DNA of 40,151 nt from Nitrosotalea sp. (GTDB lineage: Archaea > Thermoproteota > Nitrososphaeria > Nitrososphaerales > Nitrosopumilaceae): NCBI GenBank assembly GCA_033853455.1, contig JAWOLM010000050.1, positions 1-40,151 on the forward strand. The letters run 5' to 3'. Each line of letters begins with the position of its first letter. Within the stretch, counting starts at the first letter, position 1. The notes under the pieces are model-generated. The model was not told the origin of the DNA. It worked only from the letters and a program-made list of their open reading frames with translations, and did not search any database. Of the stretch, positions 7,020-20,951 are shown piece by piece. Position numbers and translations under genes: made by a program.

Positions 7020-8207
7020 ATGAAAGAAAAAGCAGTTTTAGCTTTCTCTGGCGGATTAGATACTTCAGTTGTAATAAAATATCTTCAAGAGAAACATGAC
7101 ATGGATGTTGTTACCATTACAGTTGATGTCGGACAAGGAGATGATCTCAAAAAAATTGCAACAAAGGCAAAAAAACTCGGAGTTGTGAGGCATTACAACG
7201 TTGACGCAAAAAACGAGTTTGTTTCTAATTTCATCATACCGTCAATCAAGGCAAATGCGTTATACCAGAAAAAATATTGTCTTGCAACAGCACTGGCAAG
7301 ACCACTGATTGCACAAAAAGTTGTAGAGATTGCAAAAAAAGAGAATGCCGGTGCGCTGGCTCATGGCTGCACAGGCAAAGGAAACGATCAGGTGCGATTT
7401 GATGTCACGATGCGTTCAGGCTCTTCGCTTCCAATCATTGCGCCAATACGTGATCTCAATCTTACTCGTGATGTCGAACTAAAATTTGCAAAAAAGCACG
7501 GAATTCCAATCGATATGGCGGCAAAAAGATTCAGTATAGACCAAAACTTGTGGGGAAGGGCAATCGAAGGTGGTGAGCTGGAAGACGCGTTTTCAGAACC
7601 ACCAGATGACGCGTTCATCTGGGTCAAGACAAAGAACTTGCCTGACAGGCCACAATATCTTGAGATAAAGTTCGACCAAGGAGTTCCAGTCGCAGTTGAC
7701 GGTAAGAGCCTAAAACCAATCGATCTAATCCAACACATCAACAAAAAAGCAGGTGCATCCGGAGTTGGCATAGTCGATCACATTGAAGACAGGGTAGTTG
7801 GAATAAAATCGCGTGAAGTGTACGAAACACCTGCGGCACTCTGCCTCATTGAGGCACATACAGATCTGGAAAAGATGGTTCTCACAAAGCATGAGTTGAA
7901 ATTCAAATCAATGGTAGATTCTGAATGGGCATGGCTTGTATATTCTGGTCTTTGGCAAGATCCTTTGAAAACTGATTTAGATATGTTTATCAATGCGTCA
8001 CAGAAGAGAGTTAGCGGAACTGTAAAGCTAAAAATGTTCAAAGGAAGTCTAAGAGTTGTTGGAAGAAAATCAAGTTATTCGTTATACAGTCATGATTTGG
8101 CAACATATGGTTCAGGTTCCACCTTTGACCAAACTCTTGCAAAAGGGTTTGTAGAATTGTGGGGACTGCAATCAACAGAAGCTAATAAATTACTAAAAAA
8201 GAGGTGA
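7020..8207 (+). CDS. argG: Argininosuccinate synthase
   Basis: AFSGGLDTS, AHGCTGKGNDQVRF, SIDQNLWGR, GIKSREVYETP motifs. Confidence 0.97.
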   Translation: MKEKAVLAFSGGLDTSVVIKYLQEKHDMDVVTITVDVGQGDDLKKIATKAKKLGVVRHYNVDAKNEFVSNFIIPSIKANALYQKKYCLATALARPLIAQKVVEIAKKENAGALAHGCTGKGNDQVRFDVTMRSGSSLPIIAPIRDLNLTRDVELKFAKKHGIPIDMAAKRFSIDQNLWGRAIEGGELEDAFSEPPDDAFIWVKTKNLPDRPQYLEIKFDQGVPVAVDGKSLKPIDLIQHINKKAGASGVGIVDHIEDRVVGIKSREVYETPAALCLIEAHTDLEKMVLTKHELKFKSMVDSEWAWLVYSGLWQDPLKTDLDMFINASQKRVSGTVKLKMFKGSLRVVGRKSSYSLYSHDLATYGSGSTFDQTLAKGFVELWGLQSTEANKLLKKR

Positions 8208-8218
8208 AAGATCAAAGA

Positions 8219-8386
8219 ATGAATTGTCCAGAATGTGATGCAAATTTGAAAATTCCAGGCGACGCAAGTGTAGGAGAAATAGTCTCCTGTCCAGATTGTG
8301 GCGCAGATTTCGAGATTGCATCAAAGAATGGTTCAGTGTGCGAGCTAAAGCACGCTGAGAAAGTAGGCGAAGATTGGGGAGAATAA
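8219..8386 (+). CDS. lysW: Amino-group carrier protein LysW/ArgW, copy 1 (C-terminal EDWGE)
   Basis: CPEC...CPDCG zinc ribbon and canonical C-terminal EDWGE; ATG at 8219. Confidence 0.95.
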   Translation: MNCPECDANLKIPGDASVGEIVSCPDCGADFEIASKNGSVCELKHAEKVGEDWGE

Positions 8387-9244
8387 ATGCCCAAAGTCCG
8401 TATCGTGTTCGATAGAATAAGACTAGAGGAAAAAATGCTCGAGGAAAAAGCAATCGAGCTTGGACATGATACAAAGATGATAGATGCCAAGACAACTAAC
8501 ATCAGTACAGAAAGCAAGAAAAGTGATTTTGATTTTGGCGATGTTGTGCTTGAAAGGTGCGTTAGCTATTTTCGAGGACTGCATTTTACAGCTTGTCTAG
8601 AATTTCTTGATGTCCCAATACTTAACACTCTTCAAGTTGCAACAAACTGTGGAAACAAGTTACTGACATCATTGTTACTAAAAAAACACAACGTTCCCAC
8701 CCCAACGACTCATTTCTCATTTTCATCAGAATCTGCAATGGAGACCCTTGACAAGCACGGTTATCCGCTTGTCATAAAACCAATCATAGGCAGCTGGGGA
8801 AGGGGGGTAATACTGCTAAAGGATAGAGAAATAGCAGACGCAATAATGGAAGTAAGAGAACTAAGTGACGGCCCGCTTGACAGGATTTATTATTTACAAG
8901 AGGCAATCAAGAGGCCTCCAAGGGATATACGGGCAATAGCAGTAGGAGACAGGGTGATAGCTGCAATGTATAGGACGTCAACTGGTGGCTTTAAGACAAA
9001 TATTGCCCTTGGCGGAGAGCCAATGCCCTGCGAGATTACAAAAGAGCTTGAAGATATCTGTATAAGATCATCAAGAGCTGTCGGTGGAGGAATTCTTGGG
9101 ATTGACGTGATGGAAGACGAGAAACGAGGATTTGTAGTACATGAAGTCAACAATACTGTAGAGTTTAAAGGACTAGCAAAGGTTGCCAAACGCAACATTC
9201 CAAAAGAAATGATCGAGTTTGCAGTAAATTCGACTCGCAGATAA
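8387..9244 (+). CDS. argX: ATP-grasp LysW ligase, ArgX-type (glutamate--LysW ligase)
   Basis: RimK/LysX family (KPIIGSWGRG, RDIR, HEVN); EFKGL matches the ArgX G-F-type signature; adjacent to argG. Confidence 0.82.
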   Translation: MPKVRIVFDRIRLEEKMLEEKAIELGHDTKMIDAKTTNISTESKKSDFDFGDVVLERCVSYFRGLHFTACLEFLDVPILNTLQVATNCGNKLLTSLLLKKHNVPTPTTHFSFSSESAMETLDKHGYPLVIKPIIGSWGRGVILLKDREIADAIMEVRELSDGPLDRIYYLQEAIKRPPRDIRAIAVGDRVIAAMYRTSTGGFKTNIALGGEPMPCEITKELEDICIRSSRAVGGGILGIDVMEDEKRGFVVHEVNNTVEFKGLAKVAKRNIPKEMIEFAVNSTRR

Positions 9245-9303: not shown

Positions 9304-10356
9304 ATGCGAGTAGGAGTAATAGGAGCTTCAGGATATGTCGGAGGAGAGATTCTCAGGCTACTTGTTAGTCACCCAAAAGTCGAGATTACTGCAGTTACGT
9401 CGCGACAATATGTAGGAGAATACATCTCCAGAATTCAACCAAGTCTTAAAGGATTTACTGATCTTACTTTTTCAGAACTAAACTATGACAAGTTATCAGA
9501 CAAGTGTGATCTAGTTTTTACTTCGGTTCCACACGGTACCGCAGTAGATATCGTAAAAGAACTCTATGATAGAGGAATGAAGGTAATTGATCTTAGTGCC
9601 GACTATAGGTTGCACAACTCTCCAGACTATGACAAGTGGTATGGTTGGCAACATCCACATCCAGAATATCTCTCAAAATCAGTCTTTGGAGTGCCAGAAC
9701 TTCACAGAGAAGAGATCAAAAAAGCACAGCTTGTCTCATGCCCAGGATGCATGGCAGTAACATCAATTCTTGCACTGTATCCGTTAGTAAAGAAAGGAAT
9801 TATCGATACTGATCACATCATAGTTGATTCAAAGATAGGCTCTTCAGGGGCAGGTGCCGGTTCTGAAGCAGGAACTCATCATGCGATGAGGTCAGGTGTC
9901 ATCAGGCCATACAAGCCTGCAAAGCACAGACATACAGGCGAGATTGAGCAAGAGCTCAGCCAAGCAGCAGGAAAGAAGATCAAAGTATCAATGAGTCCAC
10001 ATGCGGTAGATATTGTAAGAGGCATACTGTGTACAAACCACACGTTTCTTACAAAGCAGGTAACAGAGATGGATTTGTGGAAGATATATCGCGAACAGTA
10101 TCAAAATGAGAAATTCATCAGACTAATTCGTGACAAGAAAGGATTCTACAAATTCCCTGATCCAAAGTTCGTAGTAGGCTCCAACTTTTGCGATGTAGGA
10201 TTTGATATAGATGAAGACAACAACAGATTGGTAGTACTATCAGCATCAGATAACCTAATGAAGGGTGCTGCAGGTTCTGCCATACAAAACCTCAACGTAA
10301 TGGCAGGATTCAACGAGATGGAAGGTCTCACCTATTCTCCGTTAACTCCTGTGTGA
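9304..10356 (+). CDS. lysY: LysW-gamma-aminoadipyl/glutamyl-phosphate reductase (LysY/ArgC)
   Basis: GASGYVGGE, DLSADYRL, CPGC catalytic motif, DNLMKGAAG. Confidence 0.95.
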   Translation: MRVGVIGASGYVGGEILRLLVSHPKVEITAVTSRQYVGEYISRIQPSLKGFTDLTFSELNYDKLSDKCDLVFTSVPHGTAVDIVKELYDRGMKVIDLSADYRLHNSPDYDKWYGWQHPHPEYLSKSVFGVPELHREEIKKAQLVSCPGCMAVTSILALYPLVKKGIIDTDHIIVDSKIGSSGAGAGSEAGTHHAMRSGVIRPYKPAKHRHTGEIEQELSQAAGKKIKVSMSPHAVDIVRGILCTNHTFLTKQVTEMDLWKIYREQYQNEKFIRLIRDKKGFYKFPDPKFVVGSNFCDVGFDIDEDNNRLVVLSASDNLMKGAAGSAIQNLNVMAGFNEMEGLTYSPLTPV

Positions 10357-10360
10357 AAAG

Positions 10361-11161
10361 ATGATCACAATCAAGATAGGAGGAAGTGTGGTAGATGGTC
10401 TTCATCCATCAACTATATCCGATTTAAAAAAAGTGTCAGAACACGAAAAAGTGATTTTGGTTCATGGTGGAGGAAAAGAAGTAACAAAAATTTCAGAAGC
10501 TCTAGGCAAAGAACAGAAATTCATAGTCTCCCCCGGTGGAATCAAGAGCAGATACACTGACAAGGAAACTGCAGAAATTTTCACAATGGTAATGTCAGGT
10601 AAAATAAATAAGATGATAGTAGGAATGCTACAAAAAAACGGAATTAACGCAGTTGGACTTTCTGGCATTGATGGCAAGATAATTCAGGCAGAGAGGAAAA
10701 AAAAGCTGATTGTCATGAACGAAAAGGGACGAAAAATGGTAATTGATGGCGGATATACAGGAAAGATTCATGATGTAAATACCAGTCTCATCAAGGTGAT
10801 CTTGGACCAAGGGTACGTTCCCGTCATATCTCCAATTGCGACAAGCGAAGAGTTTGACTTTTTAAATGTCGATGGCGACAGGGCCGCTGCCTATGTTGCA
10901 GGCAAGATGCAGTCAGACAAGATCTTGTTTCTTACCAATGTAGACGGACTGTTGATGGATGACAAGCTTGTAACAAAGATGACCTTGGAAGAGGCAAAGG
11001 CAATCCTTCCCAAGATAGGGTTTGGAATGGAAAAGAAGATACTTGCCGCAACAGAAGCAATAGAAATGGGTGTAAAACAGGCCCTTGTTGCAAACGGCCA
11101 GAGGGAAAACCCCATATCAAGAGCAATAGCAAACGAGAATTGCACGGTGATTACAAGATGA
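10361..11161 (+). CDS. lysZ: LysW-aminoadipate/glutamate kinase (LysZ/ArgB)
   Basis: IKIGGS, VHGGG, SRYTD, NVDGDRAA amino-acid kinase motifs; in the lysW cluster. Confidence 0.95.
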   Translation: MITIKIGGSVVDGLHPSTISDLKKVSEHEKVILVHGGGKEVTKISEALGKEQKFIVSPGGIKSRYTDKETAEIFTMVMSGKINKMIVGMLQKNGINAVGLSGIDGKIIQAERKKKLIVMNEKGRKMVIDGGYTGKIHDVNTSLIKVILDQGYVPVISPIATSEEFDFLNVDGDRAAAYVAGKMQSDKILFLTNVDGLLMDDKLVTKMTLEEAKAILPKIGFGMEKKILAATEAIEMGVKQALVANGQRENPISRAIANENCTVITR

Positions 11162-12333
11162 CAGAAGACCAATTCATGGGAAGCATCTACCAGAGATTCC
11201 CTGTAACAATAGAGCGAGGACTTGGGGCACGTGTCTGGGATGCAAATGGAAAAGAGTACATTGACTGCATGGGAGGCTATGGCGTAGCACTTGTAGGACA
11301 CTGCAACCCCCGCGTCGTCGAGGCATTAAAGAATCAACTTGATAAAATAATTACAGTACATAGTTCGTTATACAACAAGACAAGAGAAGAGTTTCTTGAA
11401 AAACTAATTGGAATTGCGCCACAAGGTCTCAGCCAAGTTTATCTGAACAACAGCGGTACCGAGGCAGTAGAAGCTGCAATCAAGTTTGCTCGCAAGTTTA
11501 CTGGAAGGAAGGGTCTTGTTGCAATGAATGGATCGTATCATGGAAAATCATTTGGTGCTCTATCAGTTACATTCAACCCAAAGTATCGTAAATCCTTTGA
11601 ACCACTCTTGAGCAATGTGTCTTTTACGCCCTTTGGTGATGTCGAGGCTTTAAGATCAACAGTAAATTCGGATACGGCACTTGTCATACTTGAGCCAATA
11701 CAGGGAGAAAGCGGAATACATGTTGCGCCGGAGGGATTTCTCCAAGAAGTCAGAAAAATCTGCAACGAGAGCGGAGCTGTTCTTGTATTTGATGAGATTC
11801 AAGCAGGCCTGGGAAGGACAGGCAAGATGTGGGCAAGCCAGCATTGGGAGACAGTTCCTGACATAATGTGCCTTGCAAAAGGAATTGCAGGAGGCGTACC
11901 AATGGGTGCAACATTGGTCAAGCCCGAAATATTGGCATGCATTGGAAAAGGAGAACAGTCATCTACATTTGGAGGCAACCCACTTTCATGTGCTGCTGGA
12001 ATTGGTGCAATACAAGCTCTAACAGAGGATGGTCTAGTAGAAAATGCAGCCAAGAATGGAAAAATATTTCGAGAAGGACTTGAGAGATTAAAGGAGAAAC
12101 ACAAGATAATTCGTGAGATTCGTGGCAAGGGACTAATGATTGGTGTTGAGATGAAATTTGAAGTAAGAGACATATTGTTTGATGGAATTGCAAACAATTT
12201 GTTGTTGCTCTATTCTGGAAAGAACATACTCCGATTATTGCCGCCGCTCGTAATCTCAGAGACTGACATAAACAAAGCTTTAGAAACTCTGGACAAGATA
12301 CTAACAAAGGAGGAACAGAGAAGAAATGTCTAG
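11158..12333 (+). CDS. lysJ: LysW-semialdehyde aminotransferase (LysJ/ArgD)
   Basis: Class III PLP aminotransferase: SGTEAVE, EPIQGESG, FDEIQAGLGRTG, LAKG; ATG 11158 overlaps lysZ stop (ATGA). Confidence 0.94.
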   Translation: MTEDQFMGSIYQRFPVTIERGLGARVWDANGKEYIDCMGGYGVALVGHCNPRVVEALKNQLDKIITVHSSLYNKTREEFLEKLIGIAPQGLSQVYLNNSGTEAVEAAIKFARKFTGRKGLVAMNGSYHGKSFGALSVTFNPKYRKSFEPLLSNVSFTPFGDVEALRSTVNSDTALVILEPIQGESGIHVAPEGFLQEVRKICNESGAVLVFDEIQAGLGRTGKMWASQHWETVPDIMCLAKGIAGGVPMGATLVKPEILACIGKGEQSSTFGGNPLSCAAGIGAIQALTEDGLVENAAKNGKIFREGLERLKEKHKIIREIRGKGLMIGVEMKFEVRDILFDGIANNLLLLYSGKNILRLLPPLVISETDINKALETLDKILTKEEQRRNV

Positions 12334-12745
12334 AGACAAGACTGACGAAATTATACTTGAAATGCTAAAAAAGGATTCAAGACAGTCTTTTGTAGAGATT
12401 GGGCAGAAACTCGGACTATCAGAATCTGCTGTCAGAAGAAGAGTGAAGAACCTTACTGATGGCGGTACCATAAAAAAATTTACAATTGAGACTGGCGATA
12501 CCAATTCAACCAGCGCAATAATTTTGATATCTGTTGATTCATCCACTGATACTTCAAAGGTTTCTGCAAAACTTGCCAAGCTTCATGGAGTTGATACCGT
12601 CTACGAAATTACAGGACAGTATGACATTGCTACCGTGATTCGAGCCCCAAACATTACTGAGATCAATGCATGTATTGATGCACTACGCAAGATACCTGGT
12701 GTTTTTGACACAAACACAGTCATTATTCTTAGAACAGTAGCATAA
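12326..12745 (+). CDS. lysM: Lrp/AsnC-family regulator LysM
   Basis: N-terminal HTH (LGLSESAVRRRV) plus RAM domain (YEITGQYD); embedded in the lys/arg cluster. Confidence 0.85.
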   Translation: MSRDKTDEIILEMLKKDSRQSFVEIGQKLGLSESAVRRRVKNLTDGGTIKKFTIETGDTNSTSAIILISVDSSTDTSKVSAKLAKLHGVDTVYEITGQYDIATVIRAPNITEINACIDALRKIPGVFDTNTVIILRTVA

Positions 12746-12819: not shown

Positions 12820-12827
12820 CAAATATG

Positions 12828-12834
12828 TTTATAT
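12828..12834 (+). promoter_or_regulatory. TATA box of the homocitrate synthase-lysW2-lysX-lysK unit
   Basis: TTTATAT about 26 nt upstream of ATG 12861. Confidence 0.6.
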
Positions 12835-12860
12835 TCGCAAAACTTGGTACTAAAGAAGCA

Positions 12861-14051
12861 ATGGATGAGGCAAACTACTACGCATACAAGTATAACGAGT
12901 CAGAGGCAAAGCCAAAGAAGATCCACATACTTGACAGTACGTTAAGAGAAGGAGAACAACATCCAGGTGTTACATTTTCCAACAAGCAGAGAATCCAGAT
13001 TGCGTGGATGCTTGACTATTTTGGTGTTGACCAGATTGAGATTTCCCCCGTAGTATCACCAGATCATAAAGAAGCTACCAAGACGATAATCAAGCAAGGT
13101 CTCAAGGCAGACATTGTCGCTCATGTAAGAGCACTCAAAGAAGATGTGGATGTTGCACTTGATTGTGATGCAACATGGATGGCAACATACTTGGGAATCT
13201 CTGAAGTTCATATGAAAGACAAGTTACGAATTACAAGAGAAGAAGCACTTAGGCGTGCAATAGAAACAGTCGAATATGCAAAATCCCATGGCCTTAAGAT
13301 GCGATTTACAGTAGAGGATGGCAGTAGAGCAGACCCAGAGTTTCTAATCAAGATTTGCAAAGAAATTTCAAAAGCAGGAGCTGACAGAATTAGTATACCT
13401 GACACAGTTGGGATAATGAGACCAATTGGCATGTATAACTTGGTCAAAACGGTTCGTGAGCATGTCAAGACACCTCTTGATGTTCACTGTCACAATGACA
13501 TTGGTCTTGCCTTGGCTAATGCACTTGCAGGTTGTGATGCTGGAGCTGATCAGATACATACGACTATAGATGGAGTAGGGGAGAGAACTGGCATACCCGC
13601 TCTTGCAGAGACCGCTGTTGCACTTACATATCTTTACAGGTCTCCAAACAATTTCAGATTAGACATGTTAATGGACCTTTCAAGACTTATCGAACAGTAT
13701 ACAGGAATTGTCCCATACGACTCTAAACCAATTGTTGGCTCAACAGCATACAAGCACAAGGCAGGAACACACTTGGCTGCAATACTTCGAAACCCAGCAG
13801 CCTACGAACCAATCGAGCCAAAGGCTGTTGGTAACAGAAGGAAGATTGTCTTTGGCGAGCTTGCAGGCAAGAATGGTGCCGCATATCTCATGTCCCTTCT
13901 AGGCCTTGACCAAGACGAGGAACATGCAAAGAAGGTGGCTGCAGGACTCAAGAACCTAAGAATGGGCGACTTGCTTGAGATCCCACTAGATGAAAGACTT
14001 GAAAGAAAGATAATTAATGACACCCAAATGAAGGTAAAGACAGGTAAATAG
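12861..14051 (+). CDS. Homocitrate synthase (LeuA/DRE-TIM family)
   Basis: DSTLREGEQ, HCHND, GVGERTG, HKAGTH motifs; no LeuA regulatory domain; context in the lysine cluster; start chosen at ATG 12861 from the promoter position. Confidence 0.85.
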   Translation: MDEANYYAYKYNESEAKPKKIHILDSTLREGEQHPGVTFSNKQRIQIAWMLDYFGVDQIEISPVVSPDHKEATKTIIKQGLKADIVAHVRALKEDVDVALDCDATWMATYLGISEVHMKDKLRITREEALRRAIETVEYAKSHGLKMRFTVEDGSRADPEFLIKICKEISKAGADRISIPDTVGIMRPIGMYNLVKTVREHVKTPLDVHCHNDIGLALANALAGCDAGADQIHTTIDGVGERTGIPALAETAVALTYLYRSPNNFRLDMLMDLSRLIEQYTGIVPYDSKPIVGSTAYKHKAGTHLAAILRNPAAYEPIEPKAVGNRRKIVFGELAGKNGAAYLMSLLGLDQDEEHAKKVAAGLKNLRMGDLLEIPLDERLERKIINDTQMKVKTGK

Positions 14052-14052
14052 T

Positions 14053-14217
14053 ATGAAATGTTTAGAATGTGATGCGAACATAAATCCTCCAAAGGATTCC
14101 ATGGAAGGCGAGATTGTGACTTGCCCCGACTGTGGCGCAAGTTTTGAGTTAGCTAAAGGATCATCAGGCTTTGAGTTGAAACCAGCACAAACTGTTGGTG
14201 AGGACTGGGGCCAGTGA
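14053..14217 (+). CDS. lysW: LysW-family carrier protein, copy 2 (54 aa, C-terminal EDWGQ; not in ORF track)
   Basis: Manual translation MKCLECDANINPPKDSMEGEIVTCPDCGASFELAKGSSGFELKPAQTVGEDWGQ; stop overlaps the GTG of lysX. Confidence 0.93.
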   Translation: MKCLECDANINPPKDSMEGEIVTCPDCGASFELAKGSSGFELKPAQTVGEDWGQ

Positions 14218-15062
14218 GCTCAGGCCTATCGATACTTTACGACACCATTCGCTGGGAAGAAAAAGCTCTGTTTGATGCCGCAAAGAAAAAGGGCGTCGAT
14301 GCAAAGATGGTGGACTGTAAGAGTTTAACTGTCAAATTAGACAAGAGTAAGGAAGAACATGATACTGCAATACAGCGATGTGTTAGCTATTACCGAAGTT
14401 TGCACTCTACTGCAGCGCTTGAAGGCAAGGGAGTAAATGTCATCAACAGTTTGGATACAAGCATACTTGCTGGCAACAAGCTATTCACACATATGCTTCT
14501 ATTAAAAAAGGGCATTCCAACACCATTTAGCGCAGTTGCATTTTCAGAAGAAGCTGCTCTTGAGTATCTAGATAAAAATGGCTATCCGATGGTACTCAAG
14601 CCAACCGTCGGAAGTTGGGGAAGAATGATCGCATTGCTAAAAGATCGTGACTCTGCAGAAGGCATTATGGAGATGCGCGAAAAGATGTACCCAATTTACC
14701 AAGTATATTATTTAGAAGAGTTTGTCAATAGGCCTCCACGTGACATTAGGGCAATCATGGTAGGCGACAAGGTAGTCGCTGCAATATACCGCTATTCTGG
14801 CGAGGGTCAATGGAAGACAAACATGGCATTAGGGGGCAAGGCAGAGCCATTAAAGGTAACAAAAGAGATCGAAGAGATCTGCATCAAGGCAAAAGAGGCG
14901 GTGCAAGGTCAGATAGTTGGCATCGATCTAATGGAAAGCAAGGAAAAAGGGCTTGTCGTACACGAGGTTAACAATACAACGGAATACAAAAATACCGTCA
15001 GAGTTACTGGCGTAGATATACCGGCCTTGATGATAGATTACGCCAAACAATCGAGAAAATAA
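14214..15062 (+). CDS. lysX: Alpha-aminoadipate--LysW ligase LysX
   Basis: ATP-grasp (KPTVGSWGR, WKTNMALGG, HEVN); EYKNT matches the LysX N-T/S signature; follows homocitrate synthase. Confidence 0.87.
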   Translation: MSSGLSILYDTIRWEEKALFDAAKKKGVDAKMVDCKSLTVKLDKSKEEHDTAIQRCVSYYRSLHSTAALEGKGVNVINSLDTSILAGNKLFTHMLLLKKGIPTPFSAVAFSEEAALEYLDKNGYPMVLKPTVGSWGRMIALLKDRDSAEGIMEMREKMYPIYQVYYLEEFVNRPPRDIRAIMVGDKVVAAIYRYSGEGQWKTNMALGGKAEPLKVTKEIEEICIKAKEAVQGQIVGIDLMESKEKGLVVHEVNNTTEYKNTVRVTGVDIPALMIDYAKQSRK

Positions 15063-15065
15063 GAA

Positions 15066-16202
15066 TTGGACTCTTCAATTACCATAACTCCTAGATATTC
15101 AGTAAAGATGCTAGAGAAGGCTCTAAGGCTTTACACACCTTCGCTTTCCGAAAAAGCTTTGGCTGAATTTTTAGCAGACAAGTGTGATGATCTTGGATTT
15201 GAAAATATCCACATTGATGAGGTAGGAAACCTTATTGCAACAAAGGGCTCCGGTTCTCCCAAGATACTTCTTTGCGGACATATGGATACTGTCCCAGGAA
15301 AGATAAAGGTGAGAAACGAGAACGGTTACATTTATGGAAGAGGGGCGTCTGACGCAAAGGCTCCACTGATGGCTATGCTTCTTGCTGCTGCTTCCTTTCA
15401 AAATAACAATGGCACTGTTGTCTTTGCAGCAGTTGTTGACGAGGAGGGAAATGCAACAGGCATCAAAAGCCTTGTAAAACAAAAGTTAGACATTGACTAT
15501 GCAATCTTTGGAGAACCAAGCAGTATAAGAAATATCACAATAGCTTACAAGGGAAGAATTGCAATAAACCTCAAGGTCAATGTTGGCGATAGTGCGCACG
15601 CAAGTGCACCGTGGCTAGCAAAAAACGCAATTGAAGAATCGTATGTTTTTACAAAAGCAATCAAGGACGCATTAGAGGGAAACCAAGAAAACAAACCAAA
15701 ATCCATGATGCTAACTGCTGCTCTCACAGAGATAAAGGGTGGAACAAGCCATAATGTCACTGCAGTAGAATGTGATGCAATAATGGACATTAGGATTCCA
15801 GTTGACATGAACTGCAAGATGGTGGGTGAAAAAATTGCAACCATAGTTCAGGAGGTAGCAAAGAAAAGAGGAGTAAATGCCTTCTATTCAGTGTTAGATG
15901 AGACAGAGCCTTTTGAGGCACCTCATACATCACCTCTTGTCAGAGCCCTCACACTTGGAATTTTAGATGTGGAAAAGGCAAGGCCGCAACTCATCAGAAA
16001 GACTGGAACAGGAGACATGAACATAATTGGAAACTCGCTGAATATTCCAGTTGTAACTTATGGTCCAGGAGACCCTCACGCATCCCATACAATTGACGAG
16101 CATGTATCAACAGACGAATATCTAAGAAGCATCGAGGTCTTCAAAAGGATGTTACATCATCTTAAGAGACTGCACGATGGTCAAAAGAAATCAAACGCGT
16201 AA
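15066..16202 (+). CDS. lysK: LysW-lysine/ornithine hydrolase (LysK/ArgE, M20 family)
   Basis: LCGHMDTVPG, GRGASDAK, DEE, GEPS, KTGTGDMN, YGPGD...HT motifs. Confidence 0.93.
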   Translation: MDSSITITPRYSVKMLEKALRLYTPSLSEKALAEFLADKCDDLGFENIHIDEVGNLIATKGSGSPKILLCGHMDTVPGKIKVRNENGYIYGRGASDAKAPLMAMLLAAASFQNNNGTVVFAAVVDEEGNATGIKSLVKQKLDIDYAIFGEPSSIRNITIAYKGRIAINLKVNVGDSAHASAPWLAKNAIEESYVFTKAIKDALEGNQENKPKSMMLTAALTEIKGGTSHNVTAVECDAIMDIRIPVDMNCKMVGEKIATIVQEVAKKRGVNAFYSVLDETEPFEAPHTSPLVRALTLGILDVEKARPQLIRKTGTGDMNIIGNSLNIPVVTYGPGDPHASHTIDEHVSTDEYLRSIEVFKRMLHHLKRLHDGQKKSNA

Positions 16203-20261: not shown

Positions 20262-20951
20262 GTGTCAGATATACTGGTCATACAGAATACAAAAAACGAA
20301 GGAATTGCAACTCTTGGTAAACTCCTTGAGCAAGATGGCTTCAAGATCACAACTGTTCTTGCAAAGAAAGAAAAAATTCCAAAAATAGAGCCACATGCGA
20401 TAATCATACTTGGAGCACCTGAAAGCGCAAACGACGAGCTGCCCTATCTAAAAGAAGAGATGGTTCTGATACGAGAGTCTGTAAGAAAGAATATTCCCGT
20501 TCTTGGAATATGCCTTGGATCACAGCTCATCGCAAAGGCGTTTGGGGCAAGAGTATACCCAGGCAAGAAAAAAGAGATCGGGTTTTATCACGACGTAGAA
20601 TTTGATAACACATTAGATTCTAGGTTATTTCAAGGGATGCAAAGCCCAGCTACAGTATTTCATTGGCACGGCGATACATTTGATCTACCAGATAATGCTA
20701 TAAGACTAGCACATTCAAAGGACTACAAAAATCAAGCAATAAAGATTGGGAGTGCTGTAGGTGTGCAGTTTCACCTAGAGGTAGACGAATATACCATAAG
20801 ACTTTGGCTTGAAAAATCAAAGGATGAACTTACCTCTGCCCCACATATCAGTGCCAAGAACATAATGGAAGAGATTCCCAAAAACATGGAAATAATCGAG
20901 AAAAACATGAGGACGTTTTACCAAAACTTCAGATCAGAATTCAATCTTTGA
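20262..20951 (+). CDS. Class I glutamine amidotransferase (stand-alone, GuaA-like)
   Basis: LGICLGSQL nucleophile elbow, HWHGD, QFHLE triad. Confidence 0.9.
   Translation: MSDILVIQNTKNEGIATLGKLLEQDGFKITTVLAKKEKIPKIEPHAIIILGAPESANDELPYLKEEMVLIRESVRKNIPVLGICLGSQLIAKAFGARVYPGKKKEIGFYHDVEFDNTLDSRLFQGMQSPATVFHWHGDTFDLPDNAIRLAHSKDYKNQAIKIGSAVGVQFHLEVDEYTIRLWLEKSKDELTSAPHISAKNIMEEIPKNMEIIEKNMRTFYQNFRSEFNL

What the first reader, a model, noticed from the sequence alone, without database searches (positions are those of the whole stretch)
14053..14217. LysW carrier missed by the ORF track ends in EDWGQ and lacks the gamma-carboxyl attachment residue
Seen: an intact 54-aa LysW (two CxxC pairs) ends GAG GAC TGG GGC CAG TGA = EDWGQ and is translationally coupled to lysX. 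Known: LysX/ArgX attach the substrate amine to the gamma-carboxyl of the C-terminal Glu of EDWGE, and Gln has no such carboxyl. Inference: this points to different carrier chemistry. Options are ligation to the alpha-carboxyl (RimK-like), activation by deamidation or transamidation (a possible nitrogen-status switch), or a decoy/regulatory carrier that binds LysX while LysW1 does the work. Caveat: CAG vs GAG is a single base.
Basis: partly seen in the sequence, partly recalled or inferred. Interest (0 to 1): 0.8.

Follow-up and report, generated by a model that had tools for sequence, protein, structure and literature searches.

The report
Glutamine-capped carrier for lysine synthesis
The small carrier protein on which this ammonia-oxidising archaeon likely builds lysine is encoded with a terminal glutamine where the known chemistry needs a glutamate; many other archaea and bacteria share this trait, sometimes in their only carrier, so it is likely switched on by a one-time, untested removal of the amide group.

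Summary
Confirmed, and not an error. lysW (14053-14217) ends CAG TGA = EDWGQ; four sequencing runs, one RNA, agree. Gln is conserved in 80 of 80 closest loci. In closed relatives it ends the only carrier or both carriers, and no DAP, ArgJ or Dop bypass was found. That excludes a decoy. Across prokaryotes only Glu or Gln occurs at this position, switching at least 7 times. LysX/ArgX, LysZ, LysY, LysJ and LysK show no residue that tracks the switch, which argues against alpha-carboxyl ligation. Best reading (0.62): a pro-carrier deamidated once to Glu and then cycled normally, like Pup-Gln/Dop. Here the enzyme would be LysK (inferred, untested). In bacterial Gln operons an EgtC-like amidohydrolase follows lysY and is predicted to bind the EDWGQ tail (0.78, best control 0.09). 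No such gene was found in this genome. Not found in 10 literature searches, but key primary papers were unreadable. The scan found this trait before on other DNA. New variant of a known kind.

The parts
14053..14217 (+). lysW2: 54-aa zinc-ribbon amino-group carrier ending EDWGQ
   Evidence: (NF041070 over cut-off)
14212..14214 (+). terminal Gln codon CAG in place of the acceptor Glu; its G is also the first base of the lysX GTG start
14214..15062 (+). lysX ATP-grasp ligase; canonical catalytic and carrier-binding residues (R55, K89, K129, GSWGR 133-137, R179, N203, D238, E251, N253, E257); specificity motif I-I-M-NT, aminoadipate type
   Evidence: (TIGR02144 over cut-off)
15066..16202 (+). lysK M20 [LysW]-lysine/ornithine hydrolase (ATG start probably 15108); inferred candidate deamidase of the carrier
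   Evidence: TIGR01902 over cut-off; PDB 5XOY, metal motifs aligned; one copy found
12825..14051 (+). likely homocitrate synthase, tying lysW2-lysX to lysine synthesis
   Evidence: TIGR02146 385 bits, below the 413.55 cut-off; gene order
8204..8386 (+). lysW1/argW: second carrier ending canonical EDWGE (M start probably 8219)
8387..9244 (+). argX ligase, specificity motif I-M-I-GL (glutamate type)
9304..12333 (+). lysY/argC, lysZ/argB, lysJ/argD; one copy each found in the 78%-complete genome, so likely shared by both carriers
12326..12745 (+). lysM Lrp-type regulator
   Evidence: NF040947 over cut-off
7020..8207 (+). argG, start of the arginine/lysine cluster

Best explanation
This LysW is encoded with a terminal Gln and is likely a working pro-carrier whose gamma-amide would be hydrolysed once to give the canonical Glu, after which it would cycle normally. 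The cycle (inferred from the characterised pathway): LysX joins aminoadipate to the gamma-carboxyl, LysZ/LysY/LysJ convert it, and LysK releases lysine and regenerates the Glu form, so the Gln matters only for a new carrier's first turn. The likely deamidase is the pathway's own gamma-glutamyl-amide hydrolase: LysK in this archaeon, and the EgtC-like Ntn hydrolase in many bacterial operons. Gln is gamma-glutamyl-ammonia, so uncapping is chemically the release step, as Dop both depupylates and deamidates Pup-Gln. Shown: the sequence, its conservation, Gln-only genomes with intact pathways, and unchanged enzymes. Inferred: deamidation (about 0.62 overall) and LysK as the catalyst (about 0.4).
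For: (1) The Gln carrier must work. Closed genomes G234, G273, G285 have one LysW and G298, G358 two over the family cut-off, all ending Q. Glu pattern: 0 of 20 in g90 and 0 of 20 in g97. G234 and G285 keep argG-argX-lysY-lysZ-lysJ-lysM-hcs-lysW(Q)-lysX-lysK. No dapB or dapF in 5 of 5, no argJ in 12 of 12. (2) Only E or Q occurs: 82 E and 12 Q of 94 representatives with a terminal motif; 223 of 223 distinct loci; never K, D, G, A or V, which are also one base from Glu. (3) E and Q swap on both paralogues: 11 changes on a 92-ligase tree, at least 7 forced by starred branches; sister pairs within a genus (G494 Q / G118 E; G501, G551 Q / G082 E). (4) No ligase column separates Q from E partners overall (48/50), in AOA LysX (34/6) or in AOA ArgX (12/20); 33 of 38 E-invariant columns are kept in 48 of 48 Q-partnered ligases. 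No separating column in LysZ, LysY, LysJ or LysK. (5) Bacterial Q operons: an EgtC-like class II amidotransferase follows lysY in 11 of 17 loci with a complete lysY. A predicted complex with the same operon's carrier scored 0.78 against a best control of 0.09 (the mark was reached by 116 of 157 solved and 2 of 215 mismatched pairs; runs agree in at least 98% of contacts; partner pLDDT at least 79). The interface joins Cys2 and residues 100-108 (N101-G102) to tail 45-54. (6) Precedent: Pup-Gln is deamidated by Dop, 'chemically equivalent to depupylation' (PMC8223512, passages).
Against: No biochemical or proteomic evidence. No LysK residue marks Gln lineages: a C26/T10/A44 lead failed on new sister pairs. 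I found no evidence that LysK hydrolyses a primary amide, and M20 hydrolases usually anchor on the leaving amino acid's carboxylate (recalled). The predicted complex concerns a bacterial operon. No such enzyme was found in this 78%-complete genome, and no standalone one tracks Gln in 44 archaeal genomes. Unchanged ligases are also compatible with LysX acting on Gln directly. A neutral cap does not explain why Gln is fixed on the lysine carrier (80 of 80) and Glu on the arginine carrier (55 of 55) in this family, or why 0 of 121 f36 genomes have a Glu carrier without a Gln one.
Confidence: 0.62

Rival explanations
1. LysX/ArgX join the substrate to the C-terminal alpha-carboxyl (RimK-like), so the last side chain may be Glu or Gln and the downstream enzymes accept an alpha-peptide link.
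For: The RimK family ligates alpha-carboxyls, and the C-terminus-binding Arg is shared (RimK R189 = LysX/ArgX R173; PMC10375531 passages). An M20 enzyme could cleave a C-terminal peptide bond (recalled). It would keep the two carriers orthogonal in this family.
Against: Only E or Q occurs and tail length is unchanged. E54A abolishes function in a haloarchaeon (PMC10433800 passages). No ligase change with Q partners, including 32 metagenomic ligases. LysZ/Y/J/K are single-copy here and would need to serve both links. ArgX also pairs with Q carriers.
Confidence: 0.13
2. LysX itself handles the Gln, by ATP-dependent activation of the amide or transamidation with release of ammonia, giving the normal gamma-link on the first turn.
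For: Needs no extra gene, fits the repeated E/Q swaps and the absence of a LysK signature.
Against: The ligases are unchanged carboxylate-amine ligases. Amide activation by an ATP-grasp enzyme is not known to me (recalled). The bacterial operons carry a predicted tail-binding amidohydrolase.
Confidence: 0.12
3. No dedicated step: a small active pool arises by spontaneous deamidation, by Glu misincorporation at the Gln codon through the indirect Gln-tRNA route, or by a generic unlinked amidase.
For: A carrier recycles once it is Glu. Archaea make Gln-tRNA indirectly (established knowledge). This would explain why only Gln is tolerated.
Against: The trait is fixed in mesophilic soil, freshwater and marine lineages, where Gln deamidation is slow (recalled). 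Q carriers occur in loci labelled Gammaproteobacteria and Ignavibacteria, groups that usually use GlnRS (recalled, not tested). The nearby class I amidotransferase has no orthologue in 4 of 5 Q genomes tested.
Confidence: 0.1
4. LysW2 is a decoy or regulator that binds LysX while LysW1 (Glu) carries both pathways.
For: This genome and its family keep a Glu-ended LysW1.
Against: Closed relatives have only Gln carriers with complete clusters and no bypass found. In g99 and g131 the arrangement is reversed: lysine carrier E, arginine carrier Q.
Confidence: 0.03

Closest known systems
LysW/ArgW amino-group carrier proteins (Thermus thermophilus LysW; Sulfolobus/Sulfurisphaera LysW, PDB 3VPB; Thermococcus kodakarensis LysW, PDB 5K2M; Natrinema gari ArgW)
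   Same: Zinc-ribbon carrier with acidic EDWG tail (NF041070); same LysX/Z/Y/J/K set; ligase motifs align with 3VPD and 5K2M.
   Different: Encoded terminal residue is Gln, with no gamma-carboxyl. All characterised carriers I read of use a terminal Glu, essential in N. gari (E54A auxotroph). Two carriers per genome here.
Pup-Gln / Dop / PafA (actinobacterial pupylation)
   Same: Small acidic modifier conjugated through a C-terminal gamma-carboxyl; encoded with Gln in some lineages and Glu in others; the de-conjugating enzyme also deamidates (PMC8223512).
   Different: Unrelated proteins; no Pup_ligase family member in 5 of 5 Q genomes. Analogy only.
RimK alpha-L-glutamate ligase (PDB 5ZCT, 4IWX)
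   Same: Same ATP-grasp family (TIGR00768); shared C-terminus-binding Arg.
   Different: The window ligase is far closer to LysX/ArgX (E 6e-63 against 3e-23) and scores 89.6 against a cut-off of 331 for RimK.
EgtC-like class II (Ntn) amidohydrolase (PDB 4ZFJ; TIGR03442)
   Same: N-terminal Cys gamma-glutamyl amidohydrolase family; a distant relative follows lysY in bacterial Gln-carrier operons.
   Different: Weak similarity (E 0.011; 38 bits against a cut-off of 218.65); predicted partner is a protein tail; not found in this genome.

Membership tests
LysW/ArgW carrier | Zinc-ribbon fold with two Cys pairs; family profile | tested here: met
   CLEC and CPDC; NF041070 83.2 bits over cut-off 75; TIGR01206 26.1 below 53.2
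LysW/ArgW carrier | Encoded with lysX and lysZ/Y/J/K | tested here: met
LysW/ArgW carrier | C-terminal EDWGE with encoded acceptor Glu | tested here: not met
   EDWGQ in window, reads and orthologues; hence filed as a variant, not a canonical member
LysW/ArgW carrier | Substrate attached by a gamma-isopeptide in vivo | not testable with these tools
   needs MS/MS
LysX (aminoadipate type) | ATP-grasp catalytic residues, GSWGR loop and N[S/T] specificity pair | tested here: met
   TIGR02144 344 over 275.6; motif I-I-M-NT against F-I-T-NS
RimK alpha-ligase | RimK equivalog profile | tested here: not met
   89.6 bits against cut-off 331
Pup/Dop-like capped modifier | Dop/PafA-family deamidase in the genome | tested here: not met
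   PF03136 in 0 of 5 genomes
Pup/Dop-like capped modifier | Gln/Glu interchange across lineages with unchanged ligase | tested here: met
Pup/Dop-like capped modifier | Release enzyme deamidates the Gln | tested here: inconclusive
   predicted binding of the bacterial hydrolase to the tail; no LysK signature; activity untested

The most novel reading that the evidence does not exclude
Amino-group carrier proteins across archaea and bacteria are often made as Gln-capped pro-carriers that must be uncapped by the pathway's release hydrolase (LysK, or an Ntn hydrolase). This would be a Dop-like maturation step evolved independently in core lysine and arginine synthesis. In ammonia-oxidising archaea the cap is kept by selection and gates how much carrier enters the lysine or arginine branch.
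Probability: 0.35. Interest if true: 0.85.

Novelty: new variant of a known kind. Interest (0 to 1): 0.7.

Why it matters
Ammonia-oxidising archaea are abundant nitrifiers, and a published metabolic model fills their lysine and arginine routes by assuming canonical LysW chemistry (PMC6038301 passages). As translated, their lysine carrier, and in many soil lineages every carrier, lacks the acceptor group, so a step is missing from the described pathway. The likely fix is a post-translational uncapping that parallels Pup/Dop. It can be tested with four recombinant proteins and a mass spectrometer, and the same trait recurs in several uncultured bacterial groups.

Tried and rejected
Sequencing error or RNA editing: rejected (contigs only, so rare variants are invisible). 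Nucleotide constraint from the GTGA overlap: rejected. Decoy: rejected. Bypass pathways: a LysA-like decarboxylase below cut-off is present in 6 of 6 f36 genomes, but dapB and dapF were not found in 5 of 5 and argJ in 0 of 12. Ligase co-variation: the top columns were LysX/ArgX paralogue differences, and its 'disjoint' list used only the three commonest letters; the corrected test found none. The LysK C26/T10/A44/A167 lead failed. Extra genes inside the f10 and f16 operons are not shared. The class I amidotransferase at 20262-20951 has an orthologue-level match only in G234 among 5 Q genomes and in G280 among 5 E genomes, so it is not a general deamidase, though a role in AOA is not excluded. 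A Dop homologue was not found. A standalone class II amidotransferase in archaea does not track Gln. The G041 pattern hit was not a LysW; its carrier ends in E. The bacterial contigs could not be extended, so whether LysK is missing there and whether the hydrolase prefers Q operons was not tested by me. The careful tree did not finish; the quick tree was used. Yoshida 2016, Yoshida 2015 and Shimizu 2016 were not held, so residue-level contacts of the acceptor Glu were not read.

Full report
Observation. Window 14053-14217 (+) encodes a 54-aa LysW ending EDWGQ. The Gln codon is CAG 14212-14214, and the TGA stop overlaps the GTG start of lysX. It lies in argG-lysW1(EDWGE)-argX-lysY-lysZ-lysJ-lysM-hcs-lysW2(EDWGQ)-lysX-lysK-dph5. 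The closest GTDB loci are titled Nitrosotalea or Nitrosopumilaceae. Four of 13 listed runs were laid: three DNA (one possibly the source) and one RNA. None shows another letter at 14212; the RNA contig covers 14019-14400 with no differences. The specificity motif of PMC12998189 (abstract, introduction, first results sections with Table 1, and reference list read) was mapped through the alignment to PDB 3VPD. It reads I-I-M-NT in the lysW2-linked ligase (LysX type F-I-T-NS) and I-M-I-GL in the lysW1-linked one (ArgX type I-Y-V-GF). The Gln carrier therefore sits with the lysine branch.

The Gln is inherited. It ends 19 of 19 best same-family loci, 80 of 80 best GTDB loci (the 55 lysW1 copies in them end in E) and 117 of the 120 listed homologous proteins (the other 3 have extended or aberrant ends). 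A looser tail pattern hit 51 of 51 same-family genomes. It is a protein-level trait: CAG 122 and CAA 18 in 140 distinct loci, three different stops, and 14 Glu carriers with the same GTGA junction.

It is not a decoy. In 121 genomes of family f36 (same order; probably Nitrososphaeraceae, my inference), 119 have a Gln-tail match and 44 a Glu-tail match. None has Glu without Gln, and the 2 without Gln have neither. Genus g90 (0 of 20 with Glu) has one carrier and g97 (0 of 20) usually two, both Gln. The Pfam LysW family finds one copy in closed G234, G273 and G285 and two over cut-off in G298 and G358. G234 and G285 keep the full cluster with ArgX, LysX and a single Gln carrier. No dapB or dapF was found in 5 of 5 closed genomes and no argJ in 12 of 12. 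A LysA-like gene below cut-off exists in 6 of 6 f36 genomes without those upstream steps. Genera g99 and g131 are reversed (lysine E, arginine Q); g92 is like the window, with one Q/Q genome; f35 has Q/E and E/E genomes; f37 and 5 of 5 other class members sampled are Glu.

The trait recurs, and only as E or Q. Outside the class, Gln carriers were verified in f10, f16, f31 and f50, with Glu sisters in the same family or genus for f10, f16 and f31. Of the best 150 of 676 representatives at 50% identity, 94 end in the tail motif: 82 E, 12 Q, nothing else (22 short ones lack the motif, and the rest are long non-carriers). All 223 distinct loci found by a pattern open to any ending had E or Q. A quick ML tree of 92 carrier-adjacent ligases needs 11 E/Q changes, at least 7 forced by starred branches (the 80 GTDB f1 loci, three duplicates, f50 and ligases without an adjacent carrier were left out). 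Neighbours (GreA, KdsB, peptidoglycan peptidase) and source labels of the proteins or their 90% clusters (Ignavibacteria, Ca. Roizmanbacteria, Thermodesulfobacteriota, Ca. Saccharicenans, Gammaproteobacteria, 10 proteins looked up, 5 with a taxon) show that many are bacterial.

The enzymes do not change with the tail. In 98 ligases with a known partner (48 Q, 50 E; one in eight of the GTDB f1 loci used), no column separates Q from E, overall or within AOA LysX (34/6) or AOA ArgX (12/20). Of 38 columns nearly invariant in E-partnered ligases, 33 are kept in all 48 Q-partnered ones, including R55, K89, K129, GSWGR, R179, N203, D238, E251, N253 and E257. The 32 metagenomic ligases with the GSWG motif show the same residues where covered. 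GSWGR is described as recognising EDWGE, and E54A makes N. gari auxotrophic (PMC10433800 passages). LysZ, LysY, LysJ and LysK also have no separating column (34-36 Q-bearing against 24-28 E-only loci), and each was found once in this 78%-complete genome. A LysK lead failed on further pairs.

Mechanism. A change of linkage should free the last side chain or alter the enzymes; neither is seen. Gln is the one residue that a single hydrolysis turns into Glu, and in a gamma-linked cycle LysK regenerates Glu after every turn, so only the first turn needs uncapping (inference). Pup offers the precedent: encoded with Gln or Glu, and deamidated by the same enzyme that removes it (PMC8223512 passages). 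No Dop homologue was found in 5 genomes. In bacterial Q loci an N-terminal-Cys class II amidotransferase, distantly like EgtC, follows lysY in 11 of 17 loci with a complete lysY; 2 end too soon, 3 have an hcs-like gene and 1 has lysZ. Its predicted complex with the same operon's carrier scored 0.78 against a best control of 0.09. The mark was reached by 116 of 157 solved and 2 of 215 mismatched pairs (roughly applicable, as my own alignments were used); runs agree in at least 98% of contacts; partner pLDDT is at least 79. Cys2 and residues 100-108 contact tail 45-54 including Q54. My PDB search found only EgtC, weakly, so I know of no like solved complex. This supports binding, not activity, and concerns bacteria. 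No such enzyme was found in this genome or as a standalone gene tracking Gln in 44 archaeal genomes, and the nearby class I amidotransferase does not track Gln. That leaves LysK, whose metal motifs align with PDB 5XOY, as the most economical candidate here. This is untested, and a primary amide lacks the carboxylate that M20 enzymes usually grip (recalled).

Unexplained. A neutral cap should drift, yet this family fixes Gln on the lysine carrier and Glu on the arginine carrier, and no f36 genome has lost Gln altogether. Selection for the cap, such as gating new carrier or partitioning it between branches, is possible but untested.

Literature. Ten searches of the held library found no mention of a Gln-ended LysW; 'LysW' with 'EDWGQ' gave 0 papers. 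Passages were also read in PMC6038301 (assumes canonical LysW routes in a marine AOA model), PMC10375531 and PMC4745020 (nothing relevant). Three structural papers were not held; Horie 2009 and Ouchi 2013 were seen only as citations, and no supplements were read. A prior remark there cannot be excluded. The scan noted the trait on other genomes five times and the EgtC-like gene once. I stated the deamidation reading before the first look-up and found the hydrolase before the last.

Verdict. Real, conserved and functional by necessity; a new variant of the LysW/ArgW system. Deamidation to Glu 0.62, alpha-ligation 0.13, direct LysX action 0.12, non-dedicated routes 0.10, decoy 0.03. Interest 0.7.

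Noticed in passing
L248:4-636 (-), also L225, L232, L253, L273, L280, L283, L294, L296, L297, L301: Standalone class II (Ntn) amidotransferase, EgtC-like, directly after lysY in bacterial Gln-carrier operons; predicted to bind the carrier tail; may be both release enzyme and deamidase.
   Followed up: partly
L152, L153, L154, L155, L156: Several f36 genera lack the argG-linked lysW in the cluster and appear to run ArgX and LysX with one Gln carrier; in L156 no argX was detected between argG and lysY either.
   Followed up: partly
window:20262-20951: Standalone class I glutamine amidotransferase-like gene (PF00117), with orthologue-level matches in G234 and G280 but not in 8 other genomes tested; function unknown.
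   Followed up: partly
L222, L223: LysA-like PLP decarboxylase (below cut-off) beside cdc48-like and his genes in f36 genomes in which dapB and dapF were not found; substrate unclear.
   Followed up: partly
L245:1129-1779, L288:1563-2228 and similar loci: About 220-aa ACT-domain protein (weak DUF7523/ACT_7) divergently upstream of many bacterial lysW operons; possible amino-acid-sensing regulator.
   Followed up: no
L211 (G193): A same-family genome with two Gln-tail matches; the second carrier is divergent and near a contig end, context unknown.
   Followed up: partly
window:13998-14196: Run X1 holds a second, roughly 91%-identical allele of this stretch, that is a co-occurring relative.
   Followed up: no
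window:4469-5224: 251-aa ORF upstream of the ABC transporter genes with no Pfam hit; resembles a methylenetetrahydrofolate-reductase-like fold by eye (recalled, untested).
   Followed up: no
L186, L197: Family f11 carriers end in EDYGE rather than EDWGE.
   Followed up: no
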